From: a virus
Taxonomy: Duplodnaviria; Heunggongvirae; Uroviricota; Caudoviricetes
Virus record (IMG/VR): IMGVR_UViG_2713897161_000001
Location: 1 to 38,517 of that record
DNA: 38,517 nt
Strand: one strand, 5' to 3'
The position numbers and the translations under genes are program-made. Positions 422-36,051 of this stretch are shown piece by piece. The notes under the pieces were generated by a model. The model searched no databases. It saw only the letters and a list, made by a program, of their open reading frames with translations, and had not been told where the DNA came from. How positions within the stretch are numbered: the first letter of the stretch is position 1; each line of letters begins with the position of its first letter.

Positions 422-437
422 TGTTAATTACTCCATG

Positions 438-752
438 TTAATTTATTCGTATGCCTGCTCTTTCTTCATCGAGTTTTTTTAGCTTGTATCGCATAGCTCT
501 TACTGAATAAATTGAGCGGCAGGTTGCAATTGCTATTTCTTCTGCGGAGAAATTACCGAAAAGTGATACTTCGGCTCTTGTCCAGCGTCTTCCACGAAGT
601 CGGCTAACAATATCAGCGCCAATTCTTGTTGCTTTCGCCATTACTGCTTTTTCAGTCCTTTCCAGTTTTTCAGCGATAACTTCAACTGGCATTGTCGCCG
701 CCACTTCGCGCAAGAAATCGACTTCCCATTTCTCCCATGGAGTCTTTTTCAT
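438..752 (-). CDS. Hypothetical phage early protein (104 aa)
   Basis: ORF in the same minus-strand operon; no recognisable family. Confidence 0.5.
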   Translation of the reverse strand: MKKTPWEKWEVDFLREVAATMPVEVIAEKLERTEKAVMAKATRIGADIVSRLRGRRWTRAEVSLFGNFSAEEIAIATCRSIYSVRAMRYKLKKLDEERAGIRIN

Positions 753-763
753 AGGCGATACCG

Positions 764-1252
764 TTATTTGATAAGAAGTGAAGGTTTCCCAACTTTGAGT
801 TGAGCGCCGGGGATATTTATTCCTGCTTTTAGTTGGTGTTTGATTGCCAGTTTGTCGGCTTTAATTGTCGTTTCAAACTCAACGTATTCAGGAGGAAGGG
901 CGCTTGAGTCGATGATTTCTACAATTTCTGACGGTTTGCGGATTGTTACCTGGTGAATACCTGCTCGAATATTTTTCTTGCCAACCATTTCAAGCGATGA
1001 CGCTATATATGATTTGATGCTGTCAATCTTATTTTGAATTACTGCTGCTCGTTCATTCAGTGACTTTGCCTCTTCCTTGAGGCGTTCAGCATAACCAGAT
1101 TCATTTTTAATAATGGCGAGAAGTTGTTCTATTTTATCGGTAAATTCTCCTTCCATGCCTTCTATTGTGTCAGCAATCATCTCTGGCTCTAAATCTGAAT
1201 CCATCAATTTTGCGTATTCATTGGCTATTTCATATAGTTTGCTCACTGGCAA
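764..1252 (-). CDS. Gp157-like protein (siphovirus Gp157 family, often adjacent to RecT)
   Basis: 162 aa, N-terminus MPVSKLYEIANEY, coiled-coil character and position immediately downstream of recT; family call from recall; start may be an internal Met (overlaps recT stop by 23 nt as listed). Confidence 0.45.
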   Translation of the reverse strand: MPVSKLYEIANEYAKLMDSDLEPEMIADTIEGMEGEFTDKIEQLLAIIKNESGYAERLKEEAKSLNERAAVIQNKIDSIKSYIASSLEMVGKKNIRAGIHQVTIRKPSEIVEIIDSSALPPEYVEFETTIKADKLAIKHQLKAGINIPGAQLKVGKPSLLIK

Positions 1253-2141
1253 CCTCCAGTTTCGCTTTGCATTCTATGTAAATGGCTTGTACGTTCTGCT
1301 GCAATTTCATTCCAGCTGTCAGGCGATATGCTTCTGCAAAATATCGCTTCAAATCATCCATGTTTTCTGCCTGAGCCATTTCATCGCAAAGAAGTTGTGC
1401 TTTATCCATTATTTCCTGCTGGCGTTTCCGTTCATCTTCGCGGATATCTTCCTCTGATTTGTGCGGCATAACTGGTTCAGTCCACACACCTTCTTCTTCG
1501 TTTAGTACGTGAATAGCACTATCAAGACGTGATGCCTTAGGCCAATACTTGCTTGCACGCTTTACGACCGTCTTTCGCGCCATCTCATTCCAGTGATTTA
1601 CCCATGGTCCTTTATCGCTGAATGCTGCCTTGCTTGTTTTCCTTACAGCCTCAATTTCAGCCAGACTCATCTCTTCTGTTAGATAATCACCTGCTGGTGT
1701 CTTAACTGTGCAGTAAACGCCAACGATATCACCACGATCACCGAAGGCGTTGTATTTATGGGTTGGTGCTTTATCAAGCCCGTTTGACTCATAGGTATCG
1801 TTAGCATGAACAAGTTTTGCCTGACCCCATGAGATAACACCAGACTCCATTGCAATATGGAGCAATCCCATATAACTGATATCAAGGCACACCATGCCGT
1901 CGCGAGGAACCAGATAAGCCAGTTTGCTGGCCGGGTTTAAGGTGATGCCGATCGCCGCAACATTGATGATGGCGTTCTGTGCGCTGGTTGGATTTGCCAG
2001 TGCTGTTTTAGCCAGGTAATCGTTTTTCTGGAAATACTGAATTGCAAACTGGCTTTCCTTAGCCCATGTCACCGTCTGTTCAGTCAATGCTCCGCAGAAT
2101 AACTGCTCCTGCTGTTTAACGAATTCAACGATATTGCTCAT
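1230..2141 (-). CDS. recT: RecT-family single-strand annealing recombinase
   Basis: 303 aa; sequence features recalled as RecT family; position in the early-left recombination module. Confidence 0.8.
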   Translation of the reverse strand: MSNIVEFVKQQEQLFCGALTEQTVTWAKESQFAIQYFQKNDYLAKTALANPTSAQNAIINVAAIGITLNPASKLAYLVPRDGMVCLDISYMGLLHIAMESGVISWGQAKLVHANDTYESNGLDKAPTHKYNAFGDRGDIVGVYCTVKTPAGDYLTEEMSLAEIEAVRKTSKAAFSDKGPWVNHWNEMARKTVVKRASKYWPKASRLDSAIHVLNEEEGVWTEPVMPHKSEEDIREDERKRQQEIMDKAQLLCDEMAQAENMDDLKRYFAEAYRLTAGMKLQQNVQAIYIECKAKLEVASEQTI

Positions 2142-2449
2142 GCAGCTTCTCCAGAAATGTGTCTGCGTTTGAATATTGCGAAGGCATATTCAGCCTTAAC
2201 TCTTTCGGTTATTGCATCCCAGAACCATTCAGCGGCTTTTTCCTGATAGTTACAGTCATCATCTTCCAGCCAGTCGATAGCGTCCTTAGTGTGTTCATCT
2301 GGTTTATATGAGCGAAGCATTTCGCTTATTGGGTCGCAACGTTTGCAGAGGCGATCAACTTCACTGTTGATTCGCTCGTAATCTTCATCAGTAAAACTTG
2401 CGATTATTTGCGATATTTCACGCTTATCATTCAGAGTCAGAATCATCAT
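2138..2449 (-). CDS. Hypothetical phage early protein (103 aa)
   Basis: ORF with 4-nt overlap to recT start; part of operon. Confidence 0.5.
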   Translation of the reverse strand: MMILTLNDKREISQIIASFTDEDYERINSEVDRLCKRCDPISEMLRSYKPDEHTKDAIDWLEDDDCNYQEKAAEWFWDAITERVKAEYAFAIFKRRHISGEAA

Positions 2450-2667
2450 CTTTCTCCTGTTCTTTGTGCTGATTGAGCATTTTGTTCATCTGACGAATGA
2501 ATTCTTCGTCTGACCAGTTATCTGTAAAACTCATTTCCTGCGATACCACGGAATGTTGATCGCTGATTTCATCGCTTTATTTGCTTCAAGCCACATTTTG
2601 GAATCACCAATAAATCTGGCTATTACTGCTTTGTTTTGTGCCGCACGAAGCATCTGGTGATTAATGG

Positions 2668-2802
2668 CTATTTCATTGCGCATAACGCCTCCAGTTGTTT
2701 CTTTGCTGCTCTGATTAATTGTTTAACACGGCGTGATAATTCAGATTCGTGCGGGTAGAAAGCGGACATGACGCCGCTACCCGCGAGCTGAAAGTGCATC
2801 AT
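2668..2802 (-). CDS. cIII-like protein (44 aa)
   Basis: Internal ATGATG start preceded by AAGGAG RBS (reverse complement of 2803-2820); peptide MMHFQLAGSGV...ESELSRRVKQLIRAAKKQLEAL resembles the lambda cIII core helix region as recalled; upstream part of listed ORF 2668..2907 rejected. Confidence 0.45.
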   Translation of the reverse strand: MMHFQLAGSGVMSAFYPHESELSRRVKQLIRAAKKQLEALCAMK

Positions 2803-2865
2803 GGGTAACTCCTTATATTTGATTGCATAACGAAAACGCCTCGAATGAAGCGTTATTGGTATGCA

Positions 2866-2892
2866 TATAAAAAGGCCCTCACACTGGAGGGC
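2866..2892 (-). terminator. Candidate intrinsic terminator (tL-like) upstream of cIII-like gene
   Basis: Hairpin GCCCTC/ACACTG/GAGGGC at 2875-2892 followed on the minus strand by a T-rich run (plus-strand ATATAAAAAG). Confidence 0.4.
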
Positions 2893-2996
2893 AAAGAAGA
2901 TTTCCAATAATCAGAACAAGTCGGCTCCTGTTTAGTTACGAGCGACATTGCTCCGTGTATTCACTCGTTGGAATGAATACACAGTGCTTATTTGTA

Positions 2997-3467
2997 CTAA
3001 TAAAATACCCAATTTTCTGTTTCTTGGTTGTGTCCAAAGTTATATTCAATATCTGGTGTTGATGTATCAATATTTTTCATCCCATCAACAAGAGTTGATA
3101 CAACAGCCAAATCTTGTTTTATTCTCATTAAATGGTATTTCTTCCGGCGCAATAAACTTTCAATAGCAAGTTTCTTCGTTGGGAATGCAAAAGATCTTTC
3201 TGCATTTTTTGCTACTTTCTTAATTGCATATCTATTTCTCCTTTGTTTCCATTCCTGTAACCACTGATTTGGTGCTGGTTTAAAATTAACAATCCAATGC
3301 GCAGGAACCAACCATGCATAATGCTCTGTCTGATGAAAAGCTATATATTGAAGTGCGAATATTTTTATCCCATCTTCTTCAACTGTCGCCTGGAATCTCC
3401 AGAAAACAGGCATTCCATCATGTTCAGTTTCTGATTCAGGAAAAGGTACGCTCCATGATTTTGTCAT
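2997..3467 (-). CDS. Hypothetical accessory protein (156 aa) in AT-rich segment
   Basis: ORF within a visibly AT-rich stretch (about 2930-3340) between cIII-like gene and N; no recognisable family. Confidence 0.5.
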   Translation of the reverse strand: MTKSWSVPFPESETEHDGMPVFWRFQATVEEDGIKIFALQYIAFHQTEHYAWLVPAHWIVNFKPAPNQWLQEWKQRRNRYAIKKVAKNAERSFAFPTKKLAIESLLRRKKYHLMRIKQDLAVVSTLVDGMKNIDTSTPDIEYNFGHNQETENWVFY

Positions 3468-3529
3468 ATCTCACCTCAAATAAGTGGTTTGCTGCCAAAA
3501 CAATGAACCATCCGGAAATTCCAGATAGT

Positions 3530-4645: not shown

Positions 4646-5407
4646 TTAGGAATCAAGGTCAGGTAGCATGATTTTCTCAATCAACGTCAATGCCCTTTGG
4701 TCTCGTTCAGCAAAATATTTAGGAGCGTACTGAGGCAGCCACACTTCGTTGAAGTGTTGTTTGAAATCTGCAAGATATTCGTTTGGGTATAGACGTACCG
4801 GGAATGTCCGGCCATCTGGGTACTCATGGTTATATGTTGGGAATGTCTTCGGCTCAACCCCCCGGTTGTCACGGAGCCATTGCGAGAAAACCCTACCCTC
4901 TGAAATATCAGGGACCATTTTTTCTGGCAGCGTATATCCGGCCTGTTCAAGTGGCGCAACCAAGTTAAACGTCAGTTCATTAAGCATAGAAAAGTGCGTA
5001 TGAGGAACTCTGCCTCGGTTTGTCATATACCGCTTAAGGTGGATAGGGAGTTCGGCAGGCGCTCTTTCACCTGACATCCACTCACGCACCCATCTCGATA
5101 CTTGCACTGCAAATTTTGGAGATAGCCACTGAGCTAAATTAATTGCGATGTCTGGATGAACCCAAGTCCCTTGATTCTCTGCTCTTCCGCCTTTAAATGA
5201 TTGAATTAACTCCGATATGGGAATCCCCATATCGCGTGATAATTCATCAAAAAAATCTTGTGTTGTTTTTAGTCGTGTATAGTCAGCAAGTAGCTTCCCC
5301 GCAGACTTGCACATCGCGGTGGCATTGATGTATCCGTCTTTGGTGCGAAGATGGATGACTTCTCCATCAACTTCTCTAGCGATTAATGCAAGTTGAAACT
5401 GTGTCAT
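4646..5407 (-). CDS. KilA-N domain protein with uncharacterised C-terminal domain
   Basis: 253 aa; N-terminal region (HLRTKDGYINATAMCKSAGK) recalled as KilA-N/APSES-type domain; directly downstream of and co-oriented with cI. Confidence 0.65.
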   Translation of the reverse strand: MTQFQLALIAREVDGEVIHLRTKDGYINATAMCKSAGKLLADYTRLKTTQDFFDELSRDMGIPISELIQSFKGGRAENQGTWVHPDIAINLAQWLSPKFAVQVSRWVREWMSGERAPAELPIHLKRYMTNRGRVPHTHFSMLNELTFNLVAPLEQAGYTLPEKMVPDISEGRVFSQWLRDNRGVEPKTFPTYNHEYPDGRTFPVRLYPNEYLADFKQHFNEVWLPQYAPKYFAERDQRALTLIEKIMLPDLDS

Positions 5408-5489
5408 AAATCATCCTATTACGTGAAAAATAAAACAATCACCCAAACGTCTCTTCAGGCCACTGGCTATCAGCTATGTGACGATGAAG

Positions 5490-6194
5490 TCACGAACTTT
5501 TCAGCCACTCCCTTGCCTCGATGTCATCCAGATGGCGAGATTGCTTCAGAATACCAGCCACATACTCCACCTTTGCTACTTGATGATAAGGCAACGTTAT
5601 TGGCCTATGGTCCTGGTTGATGCTTGTAAACTGGTATTCTCCGTCTCTGTCATAGCCAAGAACTTTGATCATGTTGTGTCCTTCAACGGTTCTGACAAAC
5701 ACCTCATCACCCGGGAATACTTTGGTGTTAGGCTCAATGAGTACATATTCTCCTGATTTTATTCTAGGCCACATGCTGTCTCCTTTCACACGAAGACCAA
5801 AGGCATCTGGATCATCGCTATAAATTTTGAGCCACCCATCGCGCTCTTCGGTCATCTCGATGGCACCATCAACACCAAGAATTGCCTCACCAACCACGCG
5901 CACTAACCCTTTTCTTACCTGACCGACAAAAGTTAAAGAATCTGAGCATGATGCAATTGGTGTTACATCATGTACCAAATCAAGCCACCCATTAGGTAAC
6001 CCAAGTGCGGCTTCAAATTTTCTTGCTAGTTTATCCCCTATGTTTCGAGTGCTTTTTTCACCGGAGACTTGCGTGAGTTGAGAAGGGCTAACCCCAAGCT
6101 TATCGGCAAAGCTTGCATTAGTGTTACCCGCGATTTTTTTATGCTCATCTAGCAAAAACGCCAGATTCGATTTGCGAATATCTTTGTTTTCCAT
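5490..6194 (-). CDS. cI: cI-type repressor (HTH DNA-binding domain plus LexA/S24-like autocleavage domain)
   Basis: 234 aa; N-terminal HTH-like region, C-terminal S24 peptidase-like segment (GDSMWP...EYVLIEP, NMIKVL); divergent from cro across an operator-rich intergenic region. Confidence 0.85.
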   Translation of the reverse strand: MENKDIRKSNLAFLLDEHKKIAGNTNASFADKLGVSPSQLTQVSGEKSTRNIGDKLARKFEAALGLPNGWLDLVHDVTPIASCSDSLTFVGQVRKGLVRVVGEAILGVDGAIEMTEERDGWLKIYSDDPDAFGLRVKGDSMWPRIKSGEYVLIEPNTKVFPGDEVFVRTVEGHNMIKVLGYDRDGEYQFTSINQDHRPITLPYHQVAKVEYVAGILKQSRHLDDIEAREWLKSS

Positions 6195-12463: not shown

Positions 12464-13112
12464 TGGCAGCAAATACCGAAATATTTGGGTAGTTGGCGAT
12501 CTGCACGGATGCTACACGAACCTGATGAAAAAACTGGAGACGATAGGATTCGACACCAAAAAAGACCTGCTTATCTCGGTTGGCGATTTGGTCGATCGCG
12601 GTACAGAGAACGTCGAATGCCTGGAATTAATCACATTCCCCTGGTTCATAGCTGTACGTGGAAACCATGAGCAAATGATGATTGATGGCTTATCAGAGTG
12701 CGGAAACGTCAATCACTGGCTGCTTAATGGCGGTAGTTGGTTCTTTAATCTCGATTACGACAAAGAAACTCTGGCTAAAGCTCTTGCCCATAAAGCAGAA
12801 GAACTTCCGTTAATCATCGAACTGGTGAGCAAAGATAAAAAATATGTCATCTGCCACGCCGATTATCCTTGTGACGAATACGAGTTTGGAAAGCCAGTTG
12901 ATCATCAGCAGGTAATCTGGAACCGCGAACGAATCAGCAACTCACAAGACGGGATCGTAAAAGAAATCAAAGGAGCGGACACGTTCATCTTTGGTCATAC
13001 GCCAGCAGTGAAACCACTCAAATTTGCCAACCAGATGTATATCGATACCGGCGCAGTGTTCTGCGGAAACCTCACATTGATTCAGGTACAGGGAGAAGGC
13101 GCGTGGGCATAA
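12441..13112 (+). CDS. Ser/Thr protein phosphatase (lambda PPase-like)
   Basis: Metallophosphatase motifs GDLHG, GDLVDRG, GNHE; sequence from [23 protein letters not shown] recalled as lambda phosphatase. Confidence 0.9.
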
Positions 13113-13621
13113 GAGAACTAAACCTCACCAAAGAACAGCATGAGTGGCTGAATGGCTGGCTTGAACTGTGGGGCGCATGGGTTTATTCAGGTCGTCTGGA
13201 AAAGCGCATGAGCAGCGTAATAGCGAAGTTCATGGAGAGCGTAGAGCCGGGAAGAGTTATGACAAGGCCAATGTGCAATGATGATGATGGAATGTTGATT
13301 TCTCAGGTCGTCGATTCCGTCATGTACATTGACAAGAAAGCCTTTGGCATCCTCCTCAGCTACTACGCTCATGGTTCATCTAAGCGAGCAATTGCATCCT
13401 ACTATCACGCGACTGCAAAGCCACGCAAGATGTGTGGACGTGGTGGCGAGGGATGGAGAAAACCTTCACTGGCAACCTGTAGAAACGAAATTGACGACAT
13501 CCTGAAAGCGTCGTTATTTGTTTTGTACCAGCCAATGCAAAATGCTTTCAAAATGCGTAAACGTGTTGAGAAAGTTAAGCATGTTGCTGTTAAAGGCCTT
13601 GACATGCAATTATCCATTTAG
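13103..13621 (+). CDS. Q: Late-gene antiterminator Q (phage 82-type family)
   Basis: 172 aa with WGAW, CNDDDGM and SYYAHG segments resembling 82-type Q as recalled; located between nin genes and a pR'-like promoter/terminator pair. Confidence 0.6.
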
Positions 13622-13815: not shown

Positions 13816-14328
13816 ATGAAAGAAATAAAATTAACGCCAGAAATGGTGCTTTCTGTTGTTGATTACAATCCATCATCAGGCGACTTTCACTGGAGATGGA
13901 GGCAGGGGAGAGAGAGGACCACTTTGACATGGAACTCTCGTTTTGCTTTCAAGAAATGCTCATCAATAAATTCTGATGGGTATTTAATGATTATGATTAA
14001 TGGTAAAGCATACCCTGCTCACAGACTGGCATGGTTGATTGTTTATGGCACCATGCCCGATGGTTTTATTGATCACATCAACAGGGTAAGAACAGATAAC
14101 CGGATATCAAATCTTCGTCTTGTCACTCATTCCGAAAATATGCAAAACAGGAAAATTCAGAAGAATAATAAATCTGGATACCGTGGCGTGTCTTGGGATG
14201 CTAAGTACGGGAAATGGAGAGCAAGAATTAATGCGTCTGGAAAGTGTATTAACCTTGGATACCATGACACTGCCGAACTTGCCGCTGCGGCTTTTGAGGC
14301 AGCCAGAATGAAATATCATACCGTTTAA
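13816..14328 (+). CDS. HNH homing endonuclease with AP2-like DNA-binding domain
   Basis: 170 aa; HNH-like region (DHINRVRTDNRISNLRLVTHSEN) and AP2-like region (SGYRGVSWDAKYGKWRARI). Confidence 0.75.
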   Translation: MKEIKLTPEMVLSVVDYNPSSGDFHWRWRQGRERTTLTWNSRFAFKKCSSINSDGYLMIMINGKAYPAHRLAWLIVYGTMPDGFIDHINRVRTDNRISNLRLVTHSENMQNRKIQKNNKSGYRGVSWDAKYGKWRARINASGKCINLGYHDTAELAAAAFEAARMKYHTV

Positions 14329-14383: not shown

Positions 14384-14458
14384 GGGTCAGTCGTATAAAG
14401 GTCATTACGGAAGGCTGTTAACCTTCTTATCGTGGTTCGAGTCCACGCTGTCCCGCCA
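14384..14458 (+). tRNA. tRNA-Asn (anticodon GTT), phage-encoded
   Basis: Manual fold: acceptor GGGTCAG/CTGTCCC (one mismatch), anticodon stem GAAGG/CCTTC with loop CTGTTAA (anticodon at tRNA positions 34-36), T-arm CGTGG-TTCGAGT-CCACG, 3' GCCA. Confidence 0.6.
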
Positions 14459-14463
14459 AACAT

Positions 14464-14539
14464 GCTGGTTTAGCTCCAATGGTAGAGCGGTCGCCTTGTA
14501 AGCGAATGGGTAGCGGTTCAAGTCCGTTAACCAGCACCA
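14464..14539 (+). tRNA. tRNA-Thr (anticodon TGT), phage-encoded
   Basis: Manual fold: acceptor GCTGGTT/AACCAGC, D-arm GCTC-CAATGGTA-GAGC, anticodon loop CTTGTAA, T-arm AGCGG-TTCAAGT-CCGTT, 3' ACCA. Confidence 0.65.
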
Positions 14540-28280: not shown

Positions 28281-30351
28281 CGCAGATACGATTAAAGATT
28301 TCCTTGTTTCGCTGGGATTCGATATCGATCAGGCTGGCGCTAATAAGTTTGAAGCCGTGCTGAAAGGCGTTACCGCAAACGTTATGAAGGTCGGCGCGGT
28401 GGTGGAAGGCGCAGCGCTGAGCATTGTCGGATTTACCACCCAGATCGCGAATGGTCTGGATAAAATTTACTGGGCATCCCAGCGGACGGGGGCCAGCGTC
28501 CAGGGCATCAAAGCGCTGGGCTATGCCGCATCGCAAACTGGCGCCAGCGCTGAGTCGGCCATGTCCTCCCTCGAAGGGTTGGCTGGCTTCATGCGTAGCA
28601 ATCCGGGGGCGGAAGGGTTCCTGAACCGTCTTGGTGTCCAGACCCGCGATGCCAGCGGAAAGATGCGTGATACTGCTGCCATCTTTACTGGCGTTGGGCA
28701 AAAGCTCAACAACATGCCGTATTACCGCGCGAAGCAATACGCGCAGATGCTCGGTATCGATGAAAACACGCTGATGGCGATGCGGCGCGGCATGAATGGC
28801 TTTACCGCCGATTACCAGTCTATGCTGCAAAAGACGGGGTTCAACGCTGATAAGGCAGCCGTTCAGTCCAACAAATTCATGACGTCCATGCACGGGCTTA
28901 CGTCGCTGTTTGGCATTATGCGGGACAAGATCGGCTCAAATCTCGCTGGTGGCTTGGCTGGTTCGCTGGACAGCCTGCGGCGGCGCATCCTCGACAACTT
29001 CCCGAAGATTGAAGAGACTCTGACCAAAGTTATTAAGGGCGTGATCTGGCTTGCAAACGCCTTCACACGAATGGCGTGGCGGCTTATACAGGGCGCTGGC
29101 TCTGTCATTGACTGGTGGAAGCGTCTTGATGATGGCAGTAAAAATCTGCTGAAAATATTCGGTGCTCTACTGGTCGCATGGCGTCTGCTTAATTCTGCGT
29201 TCCTGAAATCCCCGATTGGAATTATCACCACACTGATTCTGGCGATCGGATTGCTGTACGACGATTACCAGACGTGGAAAGAGGGCGGTAAAAGCCTGAT
29301 TGACTGGTCCAAATGGCAGCCAGAAATTGAGCAGGCAAAGAAGGTGTTCAAGTGGCTGCGCGATAAGTTTCTGGAGCTCAAGGACAACCTCGGCGGCTGG
29401 AAAAATACGCTTACCATCCTGTTTGGCTTTCTGGCCGGTGCGAAGCTGTTCTCCATGCTCACTGGTATCGGGCGACTTGTCGCCGGATTTATGGGGCTCG
29501 GTAAGGCAATTGGCGGCTCTATTGGTGGGCTGGGTAAGCTGGCGCAGGGGATCGCTCAGTTGGCAATCAAGAATCCCTGGTTGCTTATGTTCATTCCTGC
29601 CAACAATACGCCGACCACCAGTGAAGAAATGGCGTCGATTGGCGGTATAGGCAGCAATATCGTACCTGAAAGGCAGCAGGCATATGAGGCGCTGAGAAAG
29701 GAAAATCCCGGCCAAGACTTTTTCACTGATGAGCAAATCCAGCGAAAAATTCAGGAGATGGGACTGGAGCCGGAGCAGCGAGCGCAGTCGGTTAAACGCC
29801 CACAAGCCACAGCGCAGGGCAAGGTTTTGCTCGACTGGATGGGGCCATTGTTCAATAAGCTGGAGTCTCTTTATCAGCTGCCTGCTGGCCTGTTGAAAAG
29901 CGTGGCGATCACCGAGTCGGGTGGTAACCAGTTCGCTGTGTCCGGCGCAGGCGCGAAAGGACTGTTTCAGTTTATGGATGGCACGGCGCGCGACATGGGC
30001 CTGCGTGGGAATGATGTATTCGACCCGGAAAAGTCAGCTCAGGCAGCCGCTAAGTACCTCAGCCAGCTGTTGCGGCAGAACGGCGGAGACCTTAGCAAAG
30101 CACTGGCATCATATAACTGGGGGATCGGGAATGTTAAGCGTTATGGAATGGGGCTAATGCCGCAGGAAACGCGCAACTACATTCCGAAAGTAATGAGCAA
30201 TATGCCCACCAGCGCCCCGGTGATTCAGCAGGAAACGAATATTAACATCCACGGTGTTTCCGATCCGCTTGAAGCTGCCCGTTTGACTGTTGACCGTCAA
30301 AAGGGCGTGAATTCACAGTTAACCCAGCAACTCCCCGCAGGACCGAGATAA
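28270..30351 (+). CDS. Tail tape measure protein with C-terminal lytic transglycosylase (SLT) domain
   Basis: 693 aa; hydrophobic central segments; C-terminal ESGGNQ...GAKGLFQF motif typical of SLT domains. Confidence 0.8.
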   Translation: MSGNADTIKDFLVSLGFDIDQAGANKFEAVLKGVTANVMKVGAVVEGAALSIVGFTTQIANGLDKIYWASQRTGASVQGIKALGYAASQTGASAESAMSSLEGLAGFMRSNPGAEGFLNRLGVQTRDASGKMRDTAAIFTGVGQKLNNMPYYRAKQYAQMLGIDENTLMAMRRGMNGFTADYQSMLQKTGFNADKAAVQSNKFMTSMHGLTSLFGIMRDKIGSNLAGGLAGSLDSLRRRILDNFPKIEETLTKVIKGVIWLANAFTRMAWRLIQGAGSVIDWWKRLDDGSKNLLKIFGALLVAWRLLNSAFLKSPIGIITTLILAIGLLYDDYQTWKEGGKSLIDWSKWQPEIEQAKKVFKWLRDKFLELKDNLGGWKNTLTILFGFLAGAKLFSMLTGIGRLVAGFMGLGKAIGGSIGGLGKLAQGIAQLAIKNPWLLMFIPANNTPTTSEEMASIGGIGSNIVPERQQAYEALRKENPGQDFFTDEQIQRKIQEMGLEPEQRAQSVKRPQATAQGKVLLDWMGPLFNKLESLYQLPAGLLKSVAITESGGNQFAVSGAGAKGLFQFMDGTARDMGLRGNDVFDPEKSAQAAAKYLSQLLRQNGGDLSKALASYNWGIGNVKRYGMGLMPQETRNYIPKVMSNMPTSAPVIQQETNINIHGVSDPLEAARLTVDRQKGVNSQLTQQLPAGPR

Positions 30352-30954: not shown

Positions 30955-31260
30955 ATGCAGTTTAACGAAATACCGCTTTCTCCTGACAATCAGCAGTTCC
31001 GCGTTTTGCTGGGCAATACCACGTATACACTCAGGATCATCTGGCGTGATGCGGCTGGCTGGATTATGGACGTGATGGATAGCGGCGGTGCCGCGCTTCT
31101 CTCTGGCGTACCTCTACTGACCGGCGTGAACCTATTACGACAATATCCACAGCTTGGCATTGATGGCGCGCTGGTGGTGGCGACCGATAAGGGCGCACCA
31201 GACGAGCCCACCAAAACCAACCTCGGCACATACAGCCACCTCATTTTCGTACAGGAGTAG
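30955..31260 (+). CDS. Putative tail protein
   Basis: 101 aa, coupled in tail operon. Confidence 0.45.
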   Translation: MQFNEIPLSPDNQQFRVLLGNTTYTLRIIWRDAAGWIMDVMDSGGAALLSGVPLLTGVNLLRQYPQLGIDGALVVATDKGAPDEPTKTNLGTYSHLIFVQE

Positions 31261-31262
31261 AA

Positions 31263-32330
31263 ATGTCTCTTAACTGGATGCGCCATTTTGAGTTGCAGCT
31301 GTTGGACCAGAACGGGCAGGGTATTTCCCTGTCTGACTTTAAGGTCACGTTCCAGATCGAGTGGGCAGATACACGCTGGCCGCGCGTGGCAAACGTGAAA
31401 ATTTATAACCTTTCGACCGATACCACGAACAAGATACTTGGGCAGGAGTTTGCCAAAATTCGCATCATTGCCGGGTATGACGGTATAGCGCCGGATGTTG
31501 ATGCGAGCCAGGTTGGTGTGTCCCGGGAGATTTCACCAGACCAGATAGGGCAGGTGAACGGTCAGAACTACGGCCTGATTTTTGACGGTGATATTCGCTT
31601 CACCGTCACCGGGAAGGACAACATTACGGATTCCTGGGTGTTGATTCAGGCCATTGGTGATCACGAAGCGTTCCTCTATGCGACCACCATCACCACGCTT
31701 GCCGCTGGCTATACCGTTGCGGATCTGCACCGGGCGACGATGCAGGATTTCAACGCGTTCGGCGTGACACAGGGCATTACCGGCGATTTTCCTGATACCG
31801 TGTTTCCTCGTGGCCGCGCGATTTACTCATCCAGCCGCAACGTGATGGATAATATTGCTGCGCAGTGCAAAGCGACATGGCAACTGGTGGATGGTCAGGT
31901 CCAGATGGTGCCGGAGGATAAATATATTCACGAAGCCATTGTGTTGAATGCCGATACTGGCCTGATCGGTATGCCGCAACAAACGATGGGCGGCGGAGTA
32001 AACGTGCGGTGCCTGATAAACCCAAACATCCGTATTAATGGTCTTATCCAGCTCGATCAGGCTTCGGTGTACCGCGCCACGCTCGGCAATAGCGAAATAG
32101 CACAGTCGCCCGGGCGTATCACCGAAACAGAAGAGAACGGCAACCGTGTGCTGACCGGCACGACGTCACAGGCTGCCAGCATTGCGACAGATGGCGTTTA
32201 TATCGTCAAAGCTATCGACTATACTGGCGACACCAGAGGTCAGGCGTGGTACATGGATTTGATGTGCTTTGCGCGTGGCGCTCGTGATCTGATTAGCCAG
32301 GCGACTATAGCTCGTTCAGGAGGAGGTTGA
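31263..32330 (+). CDS. Putative baseplate hub/tail protein
   Basis: 355 aa, position after tape measure. Confidence 0.45.
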   Translation: MSLNWMRHFELQLLDQNGQGISLSDFKVTFQIEWADTRWPRVANVKIYNLSTDTTNKILGQEFAKIRIIAGYDGIAPDVDASQVGVSREISPDQIGQVNGQNYGLIFDGDIRFTVTGKDNITDSWVLIQAIGDHEAFLYATTITTLAAGYTVADLHRATMQDFNAFGVTQGITGDFPDTVFPRGRAIYSSSRNVMDNIAAQCKATWQLVDGQVQMVPEDKYIHEAIVLNADTGLIGMPQQTMGGGVNVRCLINPNIRINGLIQLDQASVYRATLGNSEIAQSPGRITETEENGNRVLTGTTSQAASIATDGVYIVKAIDYTGDTRGQAWYMDLMCFARGARDLISQATIARSGGG

Positions 32331-33221
32331 GTGTATAAGAACATGAATGGACTTCGATACAGTGTGATTTTCCTGTCGGTGCTGCTCGTTTCTGGATGCG
32401 CAAATGCAGGCTTCAATTCTGATAAGAATGTTAGTTACAAAAAACGCCCCGGGTGGCAGCCAATTTTAATCTTATCGGCAGACGATTGCCAAACATGGCA
32501 ATCGAAAGGTAAGTCACTTATCGACTGGAGTGGGGAATCTTGCGGTCCCGAAGGGTTGATTAAGGCGATTAATAAAAAACCAGAGATGATCCCTATTTTT
32601 TATGCTGCATATCATGAGTACGGTACCGGTGGCGTTGGGGCTATCGATGTAAGAGATAATTCCCCGCTAAATTACCTTAACTTTGAAAATAACTTAGCTA
32701 AAAATCTTTCATCATTAACTGTAATATCAAAGATATATGATGACTACACCATTGACAGAAAACCAATGGGTCTTGCAGAGGTTTCACGTGAGGTTTTTGT
32801 TAAGAGGCTAAATGATTTTTCTTTGCAGCAGCCTGCTATCTATCAAAAGATGAATGATGTAGCGAAGGCCGATTATGAGAAAAGCAAAAAAGCACACAGC
32901 AACGAAAAACTTGGTGTGAACTACAAGACTACTTGTGGGCCTTATACGATAGACCTGTCGTCTGCTGATGGTTGGGCCAGAATTAATGGCGTGAAACCAG
33001 AGACGCAAAAAATTACTCCAATTGGTACTGGTGGCAGCACAAACCGTGAGCCGGATAACGTCAAAATGGAGTGGATGGTCGATACTGACCAACCTGGCCG
33101 GTGGGTAGGGCTCGAGTACATCAAGCGCAACGGCAAAGCCATTCTCAATGCTCAGTGGCTGCAAGCCAGCATGGATTCGCCGCGTCAGTATGCAACATAC
33201 GACTGCCGAAAAGTAAAATAG
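32331..33221 (+). CDS. Accessory lipoprotein (296 aa) in AT-rich insert; carries tape-measure-like motif
   Basis: GTG start after AGGAGG; signal peptide with lipobox LLVSGC; AT-rich relative to flanks; residues DDCQTWQSKGKSLIDWS (32481-32531) mirror tape measure DDYQTWKEGGKSLIDWS (29260-29310). Confidence 0.6.
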   Translation: MYKNMNGLRYSVIFLSVLLVSGCANAGFNSDKNVSYKKRPGWQPILILSADDCQTWQSKGKSLIDWSGESCGPEGLIKAINKKPEMIPIFYAAYHEYGTGGVGAIDVRDNSPLNYLNFENNLAKNLSSLTVISKIYDDYTIDRKPMGLAEVSREVFVKRLNDFSLQQPAIYQKMNDVAKADYEKSKKAHSNEKLGVNYKTTCGPYTIDLSSADGWARINGVKPETQKITPIGTGGSTNREPDNVKMEWMVDTDQPGRWVGLEYIKRNGKAILNAQWLQASMDSPRQYATYDCRKVK

Positions 33222-33239
33222 CCCGCCAGATAGGCGGGC
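33209..33239 (-). terminator. Intrinsic terminator for the minus-strand DUF4236-like gene
   Basis: Hairpin GCCCGCC/AGATA/GGCGGGC at 33221-33239 with T-run on the minus strand (plus AAAAGTAAAATA). Confidence 0.45.
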
Positions 33240-33244
33240 ATGCG

Positions 33245-33535
33245 TCAAAAATATTGAGCTTTAATTATAATAAACACAATAATTACGAACAGGATGTTTC
33301 TAATTATTTTTTGCTTATGAGTAAGTTGTTTTTTTTCTGTCGATTTCCCGGGAGAGTAAAGGTTAGTGGTATGCGACAGCCCCGTGCCGGGAAGGCCATT
33401 TGTCATCTTTACGCCTTTTTTTCCGATGTTAATGGTGGAACCTTTACCACCAATTGAAGTGCTTACTCCGCTTTTACTAATGTTGATCGCGAGTCCGGGC
33501 GCAATCCGGATTCTTTTACGAAATCTAAATCCCAT
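33245..33535 (-). CDS. DUF4236-like small membrane protein (96 aa)
   Basis: N-terminus MGFRFRKRIRIAPGLAINISKSGVSTSIGGKG recalled as DUF4236 signature; C-terminal hydrophobic segment ILFVIIVFIII; opposite strand to all flanking tail genes. Confidence 0.55.
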   Translation of the reverse strand: MGFRFRKRIRIAPGLAINISKSGVSTSIGGKGSTINIGKKGVKMTNGLPGTGLSHTTNLYSPGKSTEKKQLTHKQKIIRNILFVIIVFIIIKAQYF

Positions 33536-33722
33536 TTGTTACTCCTGTAGTCAATAATGCGATGGTGCAGGTCCACTCTATGGCGGCTTCATGGCTGAAA
33601 TTGATTTTCAATGCTTACTTGTTGCAAATATATCCTAATACACCTTGTGAATATGTGCCATTGCAGTGGAAAAGCCTTACTTCACACTGATGTAGCTTAG
33701 TTACTAAGAGATAATTGATACC

Positions 33723-33747
33723 AAACCAGCTTCGGCTGGTTTTTTTA
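33723..33747 (+). terminator. Plus-strand intrinsic terminator immediately upstream of baseplate V-like gene
   Basis: Hairpin AAACCAGC/TTCG/GCTGGTTT followed by TTTTTTT, ending 11 nt before ATG 33758. Confidence 0.45.
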
Positions 33748-33757
33748 TGGGGTTTTT

Positions 33758-34498
33758 ATGCCAATTCCTACTCAATCACAGATCGGCGGCGAGCAGCAGA
33801 CCGCGCAGGCCATTGCCGATTCGGTGTCTACTCAGATGCGCGTAGCGATGCCTGGCATCATTCAGTCGTTCGATCCTGACGCTGTAACCTGCACAGTAGA
33901 GGTGGCGCTTCGCGGTATTGTTGGCGACGACTCCACCGAATTAAAACCGCTGGTGGATGTGCCTGTCATCTTCCCGCGCGGAGGCGGTTGCACGCTGACC
34001 TTTCCGGTAAAAGAAGGCGATGAGTGCCTGCTGATCTTTGCCGACCGTTGCATCGATTTCTGGTGGCAGAGCGGCGGCGTTCAGGAGACCGTCGATCCGC
34101 GACAGCATGACTTATCTGATGCGTTTGCCATCGTTGGCCCGCAGTCGCAAGCACAGAAAATCAGCGGTATCAGTACCAGCGCCGCGCAGCTGCGAACCGA
34201 TGATGGTGCGGCGTTCGTAGAGGTTTCCGCAGGACATAACATCACCGTTCAAACACCGGGCCAGCTCACGGCTACGGCTGAAGGTGGAACGACAATCACA
34301 TCCCCGACTATCACGCTGAACGGCAACGTAACGATTAATGGCAATCTGTCTCAGGGAATGGGAGAAAGTGGTGGTACTGCGACGATGCTTGGGCCGGTTA
34401 CGGTAACGAATGATGTGACAGCTTCAGGTATAAGTGTCGCCACGCATAAACATGGCGGAGTTCAGACAGGCGGGGGAACTACTGGAGGGCCGCAATAA
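33758..34498 (+). CDS. Baseplate spike/assembly protein V-like
   Basis: 246 aa; Gly/Thr-rich C-terminal repeats typical of spike beta-helix; position at start of baseplate cluster. Confidence 0.6.
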   Translation: MPIPTQSQIGGEQQTAQAIADSVSTQMRVAMPGIIQSFDPDAVTCTVEVALRGIVGDDSTELKPLVDVPVIFPRGGGCTLTFPVKEGDECLLIFADRCIDFWWQSGGVQETVDPRQHDLSDAFAIVGPQSQAQKISGISTSAAQLRTDDGAAFVEVSAGHNITVQTPGQLTATAEGGTTITSPTITLNGNVTINGNLSQGMGESGGTATMLGPVTVTNDVTASGISVATHKHGGVQTGGGTTGGPQ

Positions 34499-34851
34499 TG
34501 CGATACCGACGAGAAGATGCTGACGGCGATTACACTTTCGGGCAAGGTGACGACACCTTCCTTATCGACAGTCCGGAATGTGTCGCCCAGGCCGTAAAAA
34601 CCCGTTTCGAGCTCTGGCGCGGTCAGTGGTTTCTCGATCTGACGGAAGGCACGCCGTATGTTCAGTCAGTGCTTGGGAAACAGCGATCAGACGTCTACAT
34701 CCTGGCTATACGCGAACGCATACAGGACACGCCGGGCGTTCTGTCGATTCTTTCCTTCGATACCAATTATGACGGCACCAGCCGCCGCGTCACTTTCACT
34801 TCCTCCATTGACACAATCTACGGCCAGACGACTGTAACAAGCGAGGCATAA
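34498..34851 (+). CDS. Baseplate protein (W/gp25-like)
   Basis: 117 aa, ATGA overlap with V-like stop, precedes J-like gene. Confidence 0.5.
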   Translation: MRYRREDADGDYTFGQGDDTFLIDSPECVAQAVKTRFELWRGQWFLDLTEGTPYVQSVLGKQRSDVYILAIRERIQDTPGVLSILSFDTNYDGTSRRVTFTSSIDTIYGQTTVTSEA

Positions 34852-36051
34852 ATGGCTTTGAACCTCGACACGCTGGGGCTATCGGCAACGGTAACCGCCC
34901 AGGGGATTAGTGCGCCTGATTACCAGACAATCCTCGATACACTGACCAGCTATTTCAGGCAGATTTACGGTAGTGATGCCTACCTCGAACCAGACAGCAA
35001 AGATGGGCAAATGGTCGCGCTGGTGGCTCTGGCTGTGCATGATGCTAACAATACCGCTATCGAGATCTACAACTCGTTTTCACCGACGACAGCGCAGGCC
35101 GCAGCGCTTAGCAGCAATGTGAAAATTAACGGGATCACGCGAAAAGTAGCGACAAACTCTACTGCTGACCTTCTGTTAACCGGTACGGCGGGCACGACTA
35201 TCACGAATGGCTCCGCACGGGATAAAAACGGCATTATCTGGAATTTTCCCGCGAGTGTAGCAATCGGGGTTGATGGTACTGTGCTGGTGACGGCCACATG
35301 TGCGAATAGCGGTTCGGTTGCGGCGATGGCCGGAACTATCACCACCATTAACACACCGACTCGCGGCTGGGTGTCGGTAACCAACCCAGCAGCGGCTACT
35401 GTCGGTTCACCAGCCGAAACCGACGCAGAGCTGCGCATTCGGCAGGGGCAAAGCGTCGCGCTACCATCGATCACACCGTTTGAAAGTGTCGACGGTGCAA
35501 TAGCTAACGTTGCTGGCGTGACACGTCACAAGCTGTATGAGAACGACACAGGAGCAACCGACAGCAATGGTCTGCCGCCGCATTCAATTTCCGCGATTGT
35601 TGACGGTGGCGATGTGACAGAAATTGCCCAGACAATCCGGGGGAATAAGGGGCAGGGAACTGCGACTTACGGGACGACCTCTGTCACGGTGCCGGATACT
35701 TACGGTAATCCTCACGTCATCAGTTTTTCACGCTCTACCGATGTGCCAATTTTCGTAGCCATTACCCTGAAAGTTTTTACCGGGTATACCTCTCAAATCG
35801 GCGAGCAGATCAAACAGGCTGTTGCCGGCTATATTAATGGCCTGGCAATTGGCGATGACGTTCTGCTGAGTCGTATTTATTCCCCGGCAAACCTTGGCGT
35901 GGTAAGCGGAGGCAGTGCTCGCTATTACGACATTCAGGAGCTGCTCATCGGCAAATCCTCTGACTCAGTCGCAAGCGGAAATATCGATATTGCTTATGAC
36001 GAATCTGCGTCATGCGTTGCGAGTCACGTCACTATCACGGTGACCTCATGA
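34852..36051 (+). CDS. Baseplate J-like protein
   Basis: 399 aa; size and position in V-W-J-I order. Confidence 0.6.
   Translation: MALNLDTLGLSATVTAQGISAPDYQTILDTLTSYFRQIYGSDAYLEPDSKDGQMVALVALAVHDANNTAIEIYNSFSPTTAQAAALSSNVKINGITRKVATNSTADLLLTGTAGTTITNGSARDKNGIIWNFPASVAIGVDGTVLVTATCANSGSVAAMAGTITTINTPTRGWVSVTNPAAATVGSPAETDAELRIRQGQSVALPSITPFESVDGAIANVAGVTRHKLYENDTGATDSNGLPPHSISAIVDGGDVTEIAQTIRGNKGQGTATYGTTSVTVPDTYGNPHVISFSRSTDVPIFVAITLKVFTGYTSQIGEQIKQAVAGYINGLAIGDDVLLSRIYSPANLGVVSGGSARYYDIQELLIGKSSDSVASGNIDIAYDESASCVASHVTITVTS

What the first reader, a model, noticed from the sequence alone, without database searches (positions are those of the whole stretch)
32331..33560. AT-rich two-gene cargo island (lipoprotein plus DUF4236-like membrane protein) inserted inside the tail/baseplate module
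Between the baseplate hub-like gene and the V-like spike gene there is a compositionally distinct, AT-rich insert. It carries a lipobox lipoprotein (32331-33221, plus) and a convergent small membrane protein with a DUF4236-like N-terminus (33245-33535, minus). The minus-strand gene is the only one in 17 kb of late genes on the opposite strand, so it needs its own promoter and may be expressed in the lysogen. Envelope-targeted cargo in a tail module is the classic architecture of superinfection-exclusion or host-interaction genes, but I cannot assign this pair to any described system.
Basis: partly seen in the sequence, partly recalled or inferred. Interest (0 to 1): 0.85.

Follow-up and report, generated by a model that had tools for sequence, protein, structure and literature searches.

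The report
Accessory-gene slot inside prophage baseplate operon
Between two baseplate genes of a temperate E. coli phage lies a swappable accessory-gene slot, holding here an outer-membrane lipoprotein and a small inner-membrane protein of an unstudied family (DUF4236) that recurs next to the DNA-injection genes of many unrelated phages, probably to block rival phages, though this is untested.

Summary
Window 32300-33735 has 43% GC against 55% for the late genes. It carries a lipobox lipoprotein (32331-33221, +) and a convergent DUF4236 protein with a C-terminal membrane helix (33245-33535, -), between the baseplate hub and the V-like spike.

"Inserted two-gene island" is only partly right. 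This is a standing accessory slot in a Q-antiterminated myovirus family. Slot 1, just after the hub, always encodes a secreted protein. Slot 2 holds DUF4236, Phd/Doc, HicAB or other small envelope proteins. Every E. coli, Citrobacter and Hafnia variant read ends in a terminator hairpin just before V, with five different complementary stems in the E. coli/Citrobacter set.

DUF4236 and the beta-barrel half of the lipoprotein are old residents. DUF4236 keeps this position and strand even where baseplate proteins are only 24-32% identical. Only the helical N-terminal module is rare (4 of 5,426 E. coli genomes).

DUF4236 membrane proteins also sit beside tape-measure or tail-tip genes in lambda-like and other siphoviruses, often next to unrelated secreted proteins.

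No fold, family or defence-database match assigns a function. My best guess is envelope-level superinfection exclusion, by analogy with HK97 gp15, Llp and Cor. This is a new member of a known kind and a good experimental lead.

The parts
13103..13621 (+). Lambda-type Q antiterminator gene. Context only: it makes late transcription terminator-resistant.
   Evidence: Pfam PF06530 Phage_antitermQ, E 1.1e-25
31263..32330 (+). Baseplate hub gene, the left flank. Its last 30-40 nt (from about 32290) already belong to the variable region.
   Evidence: phrog_196 'baseplate hub' E 2e-83; PF22759 E 8.9e-6, below its cut-off. Homology to relatives ends at 32288-32301.
32331..33221 (+). Slot-1 gene: a 296-aa lipoprotein precursor whose GTG start abuts the hub stop codon.
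   Evidence: 19 homologous clusters, 17 of which keep the lipobox Cys. AF2 mean pLDDT 76.
32331..32399 (+). Signal peptide and lipobox (LLVSG|C; Cys23 at 32397-32399). Residue +2 is Ala, which predicts outer-membrane sorting.
   Evidence: Read from the sequence. Outer-membrane sorting is inferred from the E. coli +2 rule.
32433..32897 (+). N1 module: an all-helical periplasmic domain (about residues 35-189) with invariant Cys53 and Cys71. This is the most AT-rich coding part and the rare addition.
   Evidence: AF2 block pLDDT 70-96, mostly above 80; GC 0.404; found in only 4 of 5,426 E. coli genomes; 24% identical to the N-terminus of the L007 lipoprotein, E 6e-8.
32913..33218 (+). Domain X: a small up-and-down beta-barrel with Cys202 and Cys292. 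It equals phrog_3443 and NCBI's 'STY1065/STY2022 family phage-derived protein'.
33221..33243 (.). GC-rich hairpin (GCCCGCC / GGCGGGC) between the convergent genes; a two-way terminator.
   Evidence: dG -16.4 and -16.7 kcal/mol, z -3.8 and -3.9. Different hairpins occupy the same place in L030, L034 and L035.
33245..33535 (-). Slot-2 gene: a 96-aa DUF4236 protein. The domain is residues 3-55 (33371-33529), followed by a basic linker and a C-terminal membrane helix at residues 73-95 (33251-33319).
   Evidence: PF14020 E 1.8e-20. AF2 pLDDT 81: six-strand beta-meander plus helix.
33536..33722 (-). Spacer that must hold the DUF4236 promoter and 5' leader. The promoter was not located.
   Evidence: No sigma-70 match on the minus strand. 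A conserved block is shared with L001, L002 and L009. No Rfam match.
33723..33749 (+). Intrinsic terminator (AAACCAGC-TTCG-GCTGGTTT plus T7) ending 9 nt before the V start codon. It marks the right boundary of the slot.
   Evidence: Same position in every E. coli, Citrobacter and Hafnia variant, with 5 complementary stem versions in the E. coli/Citrobacter set.
33758..34498 (+). V-like membrane-piercing spike gene, the right flank.
   Evidence: PF18352 E 1.4e-41; PF18946 Apex E 5.9e-9.

Best explanation
Window 32300-33749 is a standing accessory-gene ('moron') slot between the baseplate hub and the spike gene of a temperate, Q-antiterminated myovirus-like prophage.

It holds two independent envelope-targeted genes:
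1. An outer-membrane lipoprotein translated with the late operon. It consists of a rare helical module fused to the slot's usual periplasmic beta-barrel.
2. A DUF4236 protein, anchored in the inner membrane by a C-terminal helix with its conserved basic beta-sheet domain in the cytoplasm. It is transcribed against the late operon from its own promoter.

Hairpin terminators insulate the cassette. They would stop ordinary transcripts in the lysogen and be read through by Q-modified polymerase during lytic growth.

Shown: the anatomy, the slot variability, the terminators, the secretion and anchor signals, the age of the residents, and the recurrent placement of DUF4236 beside tape-measure, hub or tail-tip genes.

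Inferred: both proteins act at the cell envelope to keep other, probably related, phages out. The periplasmic or outer-membrane protein would act at or after adsorption. The DUF4236 protein would act at the inner membrane where the tape measure and tail tip deliver DNA, as HK97 gp15 does. Convergent late transcription would turn the DUF4236 gene down once the prophage itself goes lytic.
For: Slot and cargo.
- Homology among 9 related loci stops at 32288-32301 and resumes at 33726-33740.
- Of 5,426 complete E. coli genomes, about 41 carry both flanks. 19 have DUF4236 and 2 have Phd/Doc; the rest have small secreted or membrane proteins.
- One metagenomic relative adds Arc, Bro-N and HicAB at this position.

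Slot 1 is always a secreted protein, built from shuffled modules: X alone, N1-X, N1-like-Y and linker-Y.

Terminators. A hairpin plus T-run sits just before V in every E. coli, Citrobacter and Hafnia variant. The E. coli/Citrobacter set shows 5 stem versions that stay complementary, and the Hafnia lineage keeps one too. The phage has a lambda-type Q.

Age of the residents. The layout hub, X, hairpin, DUF4236 on the opposite strand, V is kept in Klebsiella, Hafnia and a second E. coli lineage. There DUF4236 is 52-64% identical and X 30-35%. In a distant lineage the baseplate proteins are 24-32% identical, yet DUF4236 is 54% identical and still in place.

DUF4236 in other phages.
- At least 542 viral contigs encode relatives.
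- Of the best 80, at least 66 lie in tail modules: 51 in the hub-V slot, 9 between tape measure and gpM of lambda-like phages on the opposite strand, and 5 just upstream of a siphovirus tape measure.
- It also lies between the tail chaperone and the tape measure in phiCD146 and another siphovirus. That is the position of HK97 gene 15 (PMC3594210).
- Other copies lie in defence-island-like contexts.

Precedent for an opposite-strand immune gene interrupting a Q-driven late operon, expressed in the lysogen and reduced by Q: phi80 taiEcA (PMC11364771) and JBD26 tab (PMC10884400).
Against: - No sigma-70-type promoter was found for the DUF4236 gene, so expression in the lysogen is assumed.
- The slot-1 gene abuts the hub gene and looks late-expressed, which fits a lytic-cycle role as well as exclusion.
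- The conserved DUF4236 domain is cytoplasmic and is also found in large lytic phages, which a pure entry blocker does not obviously need.
- The 80 viral loci were chosen by similarity to the query, so the tail-module fraction is inflated by close relatives.
Confidence: 0.5

Rival explanations
1. A defence and counter-defence pair of the Tab/anti-Tab or Tai/Ati type. DUF4236, made in the lysogen, would use its cytoplasmic domain to bind tape-measure, hub or spike proteins of incoming phages and block their tail assembly. A late-expressed gene of the same slot, or antisense late transcription, would protect the prophage's own assembly.
For: - The gene layout matches. [quoted passage not shown]
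- The DUF4236 domain is cytoplasmic, where tails assemble (and the positive-inside rule).
- DUF4236 sits next to tape-measure, hub or tip genes in several unrelated phages.
- X and DUF4236 are kept together across Klebsiella, Hafnia and E. coli lineages.
Against: - The slot-1 protein is exported, so it cannot reach a cytoplasmic domain.
- X occurs without DUF4236 in about half of the E. coli prophages, and DUF4236 occurs without X (L036, L104-L114 and lambda-like phages).
- Sequence similarity to Tab or Tai was not tested, because their sequences were not in hand.
Confidence: 0.13
2. Lysogenic-conversion factors unrelated to phage exclusion. The lipoprotein and the membrane protein would change the host envelope for the host's benefit (serum resistance, adhesion, stress tolerance), as lambda Bor and Lom do.
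For: - The moron anatomy, envelope targeting and compositional difference fit.
- Morons are known to have such roles (PMC3594210).
- The hosts include clinical and animal E. coli isolates.
Against: - DUF4236 sits persistently beside injection-machinery genes in phages of very different hosts (Pseudomonas, Acinetobacter, Clostridioides, enterobacteria), and it is present in lytic phages. Both point to a phage-centred role.
- Its slot-mates are toxin-antitoxin modules.
- There is no similarity to known virulence families.
Confidence: 0.15
3. Helpers of the phage's own lytic cycle. A late-made periplasmic protein and a membrane protein would tune lysis timing, mask receptors on debris so progeny are not lost, or control the virion's wall-degrading enzyme.
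For: - Slot 1 directly abuts the hub gene in the late operon.
- A secreted protein occupies this slot in every relative examined.
- DUF4236 also occurs in lytic jumbo phages and 140-kb phages.
- The tape measure carries an SLT lytic transglycosylase domain, E 2.8e-25.
Against: - X is present where the tape measure has no SLT domain (L030, L038), which weakens the enzyme-inhibitor version.
- The phage has a complete holin / Rz lysis cassette elsewhere.
- The DUF4236 gene is antisense to late transcription, an odd choice for a late helper.
- Slot contents are freely replaced by unrelated genes.
Confidence: 0.15
4. Not functional genes: chance ORFs or decaying remnants in AT-rich junk between tail genes.
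For: - RefSeq annotates the long lipoprotein gene as a truncated pseudogene in one genome, and 101-aa fragments are deposited.
- No known function.
Against: - Both ORFs are intact in all copies seen.
- The lipoprotein has 19 homologous clusters down to 34% identity, with invariant cysteines.
- DUF4236 matches a curated Pfam family far above its cut-off, and the family has 12,880 clusters at 50% identity.
- Both give confident fold predictions.
Confidence: 0.02

Closest known systems
HK97 gene 15 moron (Cumby et al. 2012; reviewed in PMC3594210)
   Same: A small inner-membrane protein encoded by an add-on gene inside the tail operon. DUF4236 genes occupy the very same chaperone / tape-measure position in phiCD146 and another siphovirus. 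The unit is compositionally distinct and self-contained. HK97 gp15 blocks DNA entry in a way that depends on the incoming phage's tail.
   Different: No Pfam family other than DUF4236 matches the protein, so it is not a YebO relative. Direct alignment to gp15 was not done. DUF4236 is anchored at its C-terminus and has a conserved cytoplasmic beta-sheet domain. No exclusion phenotype has been tested.
Superinfection-exclusion lipoproteins Llp (T5) and Cor (phi80, N15, HK022)
   Same: Phage-encoded outer-membrane lipoproteins or periplasmic proteins encoded among tail or receptor-binding genes. They act on the envelope to stop further infection.
   Different: No family match. The window gene lies about 3.5 kb from the tail-fibre genes, not beside them. 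The same DUF4236 protein is found with different fibres. No receptor is known. Llp and Cor are single small domains, whereas this protein is two modules.
P2 Z/fun accessory hotspot downstream of a baseplate gene (Rousset et al. 2022, as described in bioRxiv 10.1101/2024.10.15.618418)
   Same: A fixed, conserved-flank position inside a myovirus tail gene cluster where unrelated accessory and defence genes are exchanged.
   Different: A different phage family, different flanking genes and different cargo. None of the cargo here matches PADLOC models.
Tab/anti-Tab (JBD26) and Tai/Ati (phi80) 'noncontiguous operon' defence systems (PMC10884400, PMC11364771)
   Same: An opposite-strand gene with its own promoter interrupts a late operon, next to a plus-strand gene that abuts the upstream late gene. 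The targets are tape-measure or tail-tip proteins.
   Different: Those systems sit near the packaging genes, their proteins are soluble, and the two partners bind each other. Here one partner is exported, the other is a membrane protein with a cytoplasmic domain, and each occurs without the other.
T4 Spackle and the MliC/PliC periplasmic inhibitors of wall-degrading enzymes
   Same: Small, signal-peptide-bearing periplasmic proteins, with both soluble and lipoprotein versions. MliC and PliC are eight-stranded barrels. The tape measure here carries an SLT domain that could be a target.

Membership tests
Moron (Juhala/Hendrix sense, as summarised in PMC3594210) | Present in some but not all closely related phages at the same position | tested here: met
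   The content of the slot differs among about 41 E. coli prophages with identical flanks. N1 is in 4 of 5,426 genomes and DUF4236 is in 19.
Moron (Juhala/Hendrix sense, as summarised in PMC3594210) | Base composition differs from the surrounding genes | tested here: met
   0.430 against 0.548. The same holds in 8 lineages.
Moron (Juhala/Hendrix sense, as summarised in PMC3594210) | Own terminator | tested here: met
   Hairpins at 33221-33243 and 33723-33749. The second has 5 complementary stem versions across relatives.
Moron (Juhala/Hendrix sense, as summarised in PMC3594210) | Own promoter | tested here: inconclusive
   The opposite orientation requires one, but no sigma-70 consensus was found in 33536-33722. 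For slot 1 there is only a weak match inside the hub gene.
Moron (Juhala/Hendrix sense, as summarised in PMC3594210) | Expressed from the repressed prophage | not testable with these tools
   Needs RNA-seq or reporter fusions in the lysogen.
Pfam DUF4236 (PF14020) | Match to the family model above its gathering score | tested here: met
   73.6 bits against a cut-off of 27, E 1.8e-20, residues 3-55 covering the whole model.
Bacterial lipoprotein | Signal peptide ending in a lipobox with an invariant Cys | tested here: met
   The sequence ...SVLLVSG|C fits the PROSITE-type lipobox pattern (read by eye). The Cys is kept in 17 of 19 homologues. Lipidation itself was not tested.
phrog_3443 / NCBI 'STY1065/STY2022 family phage-derived protein' | Sequence match of the C-terminal domain | tested here: met
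   E 3.8e-35 over residues 198-296. A homologue in L025 carries the NCBI name. The family has no known function and no literature.
Known anti-phage defence systems (PADLOC-DB 2.0) | Match to any model | tested here: not met
   No match at E up to 1 for either protein or for two slot-mates.
Superinfection exclusion proteins (functional class) | Expression lowers infection by blocking adsorption or DNA entry | not testable with these tools
   Needs plating, adsorption and DNA-entry assays.
MliC/PliC lysozyme-inhibitor family | Family sequence match, and pairing with a wall-degrading target | tested here: not met
   No Pfam match; only a generic barrel fold. X is present with tape measures that lack SLT.
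Tab/anti-Tab-type defence pair | The two genes always occur together and can meet in one compartment | tested here: not met
   Each gene occurs without the other. One product is exported, and the other has its domain in the cytoplasm.

The most novel reading that the evidence does not exclude
DUF4236 membrane proteins are a large, unrecognised class of phage-borne factors (12,880 clusters at 50% identity) that act on the genome-delivery machinery (tape measure, hub, tail tip) from the cytoplasmic face of the inner membrane. Their repeated pairing with unrelated secreted or lipoprotein partners across unrelated phages would reflect a two-compartment exclusion device, periplasm plus inner membrane. 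The device would be switched off by antisense late transcription when the resident phage goes lytic.
Probability: 0.2. Interest if true: 0.75.

Novelty: new member of a known kind. Interest (0 to 1): 0.5.

Why it matters
If the inference holds, one uncharacterised domain family would explain a recurrent add-on gene beside the DNA-injection genes of many temperate phages, in enterobacteria, Pseudomonas, Acinetobacter and Clostridioides. That would add a widespread entry-level barrier to the list of prophage defences. It bears on phage therapy host range and on prophage competition in the gut. The hub-spike slot is also a ready-made place to look for further accessory genes: at least nine unrelated cargo types were seen here, none with a known function except the toxin-antitoxin pairs. 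Even if the function differs, the slot shows cleanly how a Q-antiterminated late operon tolerates insulated foreign cassettes.

Tried and rejected
- Function by sequence family. Pfam, PHROGs, NCBIfam and PADLOC gave only DUF4236 and phrog_3443, both of unknown function. Other slot cargo gave nothing.
- Function by solved structures. Profile searches of PDB sequences gave nothing usable.
- X as inhibitor of the tape measure's SLT transglycosylase (Spackle / PliC idea). Weakened, because X is present where the tape measure lacks SLT.
- X or DUF4236 as a receptor-specific blocker tied to the tail fibre. The same DUF4236 protein occurs with different fibre genes. This was not pursued further, because linkage would confound it.
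- Obligate two-gene system. Rejected by the independent occurrence of each gene.
- Partners of DUF4236 in other phages as homologues of X. Rejected (HMM E above 0.3).
- Promoter of the DUF4236 gene. Not found by consensus scan or by eye.
- Structured RNA in the spacer. No Rfam match.
- Formal pair-count on the terminator alignment. Abandoned because MAFFT put the stems in two registers. Complementarity was read directly instead.
- Literature. 'DUF4236' occurs in one unrelated paper, and 'STY1065/STY2022' in no biological paper.
Full report
**1. Observation**

The composition dip is real. GC falls from about 0.54 to 0.37-0.47 across 32250-33750. The variable region 32300-33735 is 0.430, against 0.548 for the late genes, 0.537 for the hub and 0.564 for V.

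The dip is uneven. It is 0.404 for the first 591 nt of the plus-strand gene, 0.503 for its last 300 nt, 0.388 for the minus-strand gene and 0.392 for the spacer.

ORF 32331-33221(+) encodes 296 aa. It starts at a GTG that directly follows the hub TGA, behind GGAGGAGG. Residues 1-23 end in LLVSG|C, a lipobox, with Ala at +2.

ORF 33245-33535(-) encodes 96 aa. It matches Pfam DUF4236 at E 1.8e-20 over residues 3-55.

The left neighbour is a baseplate hub (phrog_196, E 2e-83). The right neighbour is a spike with the phi92-type N-terminal domain (E 1.4e-41) and the GpV apex motif. Upstream genes are Dit-like and a baseplate plug; downstream are the sheath initiator and baseplate J.

The window is a nearly whole temperate phage. 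It has an S24 repressor, a lambda-type Q antiterminator (E 1.1e-25), a holin / Rz lysis cassette, and a tape measure with a C-terminal SLT domain.

**2. The place is a standing accessory slot, not a one-off insertion**

Megablast of 31000-35000 finds this tail segment in 55 of 5,426 complete E. coli genomes and in Citrobacter phage Omnitron. In nine fetched relatives, homology to the window stops at 32288-32301, inside the last codons of the hub gene, and resumes at 33726-33740.

Between those points the content differs.

- Directly after the hub there is always a gene for a secreted protein ('slot 1').
- After it comes a second position ('slot 2'). It holds DUF4236 on the opposite strand (19 of about 41 genomes), Phd/Doc (2 genomes), a 53-aa ORF, 106-aa or 128-aa signal-peptide proteins, a 185-aa four-helix membrane protein plus a 70-aa ORF, or nothing.
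- A metagenomic relative carries an Arc-DUF4236 operon, a second Arc, Bro-N and HicAB there.

**3. Terminators**

The window has two hairpins. A GC-rich one lies between the convergent genes (33221-33243; dG -16.4 kcal/mol, z -3.8). A hairpin plus T7 ends 9 nt before the V start codon (33723-33749).

The second is present in every E. coli, Citrobacter and Hafnia variant read. It always sits just ahead of the V start codon. Its stem comes in five versions in the E. coli/Citrobacter set, each complementary:

- AACCAGC / GCTGGTT
- AACCCGC / GCGGGTT
- GACCCGC / GCGGGT
- AAGCCGC / GCGGCTT
- ACCCACC / GGTGGGT

. In the Klebsiella lineage the hairpin remains but the T-run is lost.

Late transcription here is Q-antiterminated. 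Such a terminator can therefore only matter for ordinary transcripts, that is, those made from cassette promoters in a lysogen. This is the classical moron logic (PMC3594210). It is an inference, because no transcript data exist.

**4. The lipoprotein is a mosaic**

Its C-terminal 100 residues match phrog_3443 (E 3.8e-35). In most relatives the slot-1 gene is just that domain ('X') behind an ordinary signal peptide, at 111-125 aa.

NCBI names one such protein 'STY1065/STY2022 family phage-derived protein'. The name appears in no biological paper. The X family has 74 clusters, all from Enterobacterales.

The window version replaces the signal peptide with a lipobox signal plus a helical module of about 155 residues ('N1'). 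The full-length form has only 19 clusters among 5.8 billion sequences. It occurs in 4 of 5,426 E. coli genomes.

N1 is distantly related (24% identity, E 6e-8) to the N-terminus of another slot-1 lipoprotein, L007, whose C-terminus is a different domain ('Y'). Y also occurs behind a charged linker in L006. The modules therefore combine as X, N1-X, N1-like-Y and linker-Y.

Conserved cysteine pairs (C53/C71 invariant; C202/C292 nearly so) suit a periplasmic protein.

**5. The DUF4236 protein**

The model (pLDDT 81) is a six-strand antiparallel sheet at residues 6-60, a basic linker, and a C-terminal helix at residues 73-95. The strands alternate hydrophobic and basic or polar residues.

The strongly basic N-terminus and the few residues after the helix place the conserved domain in the cytoplasm. 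This is inferred from the positive-inside rule.

The family is large: 12,880 clusters at 50% identity, with the domain almost always starting at residue 1. The commonest form is the 90-110-aa domain-plus-anchor type. Others add a periplasmic SH3 domain or an FtsK-gamma domain.

Only one paper in the library contains the word DUF4236, and only in passing. PADLOC and NCBIfam have no model for it.

**6. DUF4236 and X are old residents**

The order hub, short X, hairpin, DUF4236 on the opposite strand, V is found in three other lineages: Klebsiella (phage GZ7 and metagenomic contigs), Hafnia and a second E. coli lineage. There the structural proteins are 45-85% identical to the window's, DUF4236 52-64% and X 30-35%.

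In a far branch the baseplate proteins are only 24-32% identical. DUF4236 (177 aa, 54% identical over the domain) still lies between hub and V on the opposite strand, without X.

The DUF4236 gene is 5-17 GC points below its flanks in all eight lineages checked. Low GC is therefore a lasting property, not a sign of recent arrival.

**7. DUF4236 in other phages**

At least 542 viral contigs encode relatives. I classified the neighbours of the best 80 with a small set of reference tail proteins.

| Location | Loci |
|---|---|
| Hub-V slot, opposite strand | 51 |
| Between tape measure and gpM of lambda-like prophages, opposite strand | 9 |
| One or two genes upstream of an 1,146-1,298-aa tape measure (Acinetobacter-like siphoviruses) | 5 |
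| Other positions close to a tape-measure or tail-tip gene (L068; also L085, L093) | 1-3 |
| At least in tail modules, total | 66 |

Independent look-ups agree.

- In a Pseudomonas syringae lambda-like prophage the gene lies between gpK and gpI/J.
- In Leclercia it lies between the tape measure and gpM.
- In another siphovirus it lies between the tail chaperone and the tape measure.
- The same holds in Clostridioides phage phiCD146. That is the position of HK97 gene 15.

The sample is biased toward close relatives, so the fraction is an upper estimate. The number of independent phage types, at least six, is the firmer figure.

Non-phage copies sit beside restriction, Abi and toxin-antitoxin genes, or beside a type III CRISPR locus. 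In Vibrio and Photobacterium the copy pairs with a 179-aa partner that carries an Rx4H motif and a faint HEPN match.

ORFs adjacent to DUF4236 carry an N-terminal signal or anchor in 11 of 53 cases, against 16 of 367 for other ORFs in the same loci (odds ratio 5.7, Fisher p 1.3e-4). Several of these are X, and one is a spurious antisense ORF. Unrelated lipoproteins or secreted proteins do flank DUF4236 in L023, L032, L068, L080, L089 and L102.

**8. Mechanism**

What is shown: a conserved, insulated accessory slot; two exported or membrane proteins that cannot be virion parts; and a family-wide tie between DUF4236 and the injection-machinery genes.

What I infer (confidence about 0.5) is that both proteins act on the envelope to exclude other phages. 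The lipoprotein or periplasmic barrel would act outside the inner membrane. DUF4236 would act at the inner membrane, by analogy with HK97 gp15, Llp, Cor and P22 SieA.

The opposite orientation inside a Q operon has precedents in phi80 taiEcA and JBD26 tab. Both are made in the lysogen, and TaiEcA drops when Q is expressed. The same could silence DUF4236 during the phage's own lytic growth.

A Tab-like defence and counter-defence pair is a live rival. It is weakened by the compartment mismatch and by the independent occurrence of the two genes. A role for X as inhibitor of the tape measure's SLT domain is weakened, because X persists where SLT is absent.

**9. Verdict**

The feature is a new member of a known kind: a moron or accessory hotspot in a tail operon. 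It is built from protein families that nobody has studied.

Its main value is as a lead. DUF4236 membrane proteins look like a widespread, tail-module-linked accessory class that deserves a direct exclusion test.

Noticed in passing
window 14384-14536: Two adjacent tRNA genes (Rfam 55 and 61 bits) lie between the Q/HNH region and the lysis cassette.
   Followed up: no
window 13816-14328: A 170-aa HNH endonuclease with an AP2 DNA-binding domain, a homing-endonuclease-like gene, lies between Q and the tRNAs.
   Followed up: no
window 28270-30351: The tape measure carries a C-terminal SLT lytic transglycosylase domain (residues 527-627, E 2.8e-25). Related Klebsiella and Hafnia tape measures of similar length lack it.
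   Followed up: partly
L001 3435-3722; proteins P0140 and P0141: RefSeq annotates the 296-aa lipoprotein gene as a truncated pseudogene or as 101-aa fragments. The likely reasons are its GTG start and its lack of named homologues. The ORF is intact in all copies read.
   Followed up: partly
L022 about 5350-5683 (Klebsiella phage GZ7, minus strand of the locus): An unannotated 110-aa domain-X gene with a signal peptide lies between the hub and the DUF4236 gene in the deposited phage genome.
   Followed up: yes
L009 4422-4649 and L027 3582-3809: In two E. coli prophages a gap of about 228 bp separates V from the sheath-initiator gene. In the window these two genes abut (34498). This may be a second small insertion site.
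   Followed up: no
L018-L021 6001-7184: In Vibrio and Photobacterium, a DUF4236 + membrane helix + SH3 protein is always followed by a 179-191-aa protein with an RNSLVH (Rx4H) motif and a faint HEPN match. The pair lies in variable islands and on a plasmid. It may be a two-gene conflict system.
   Followed up: partly
L038 2440-5315: In one relative the hub-V slot is expanded to an Arc-like repressor co-oriented with DUF4236, a second Arc, a Bro-N protein and a HicAB pair.
   Followed up: partly
window 32328-32333: The hub gene and the lipoprotein gene are in the same reading frame, separated only by TGA. The frame relation is not kept in all relatives (L003 is out of frame), so read-through fusion is unlikely to matter.
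   Followed up: partly
window 1-3500: The early (leftward) region is as AT-rich (about 0.40) as the cassette, so low GC alone does not single out the finding within this window.
   Followed up: no
L025 1986-2543: One slot-2 alternative is a 185-aa protein with a soluble N-terminal part and four predicted membrane helices, followed by a 70-aa ORF. Neither has a family match.
   Followed up: no
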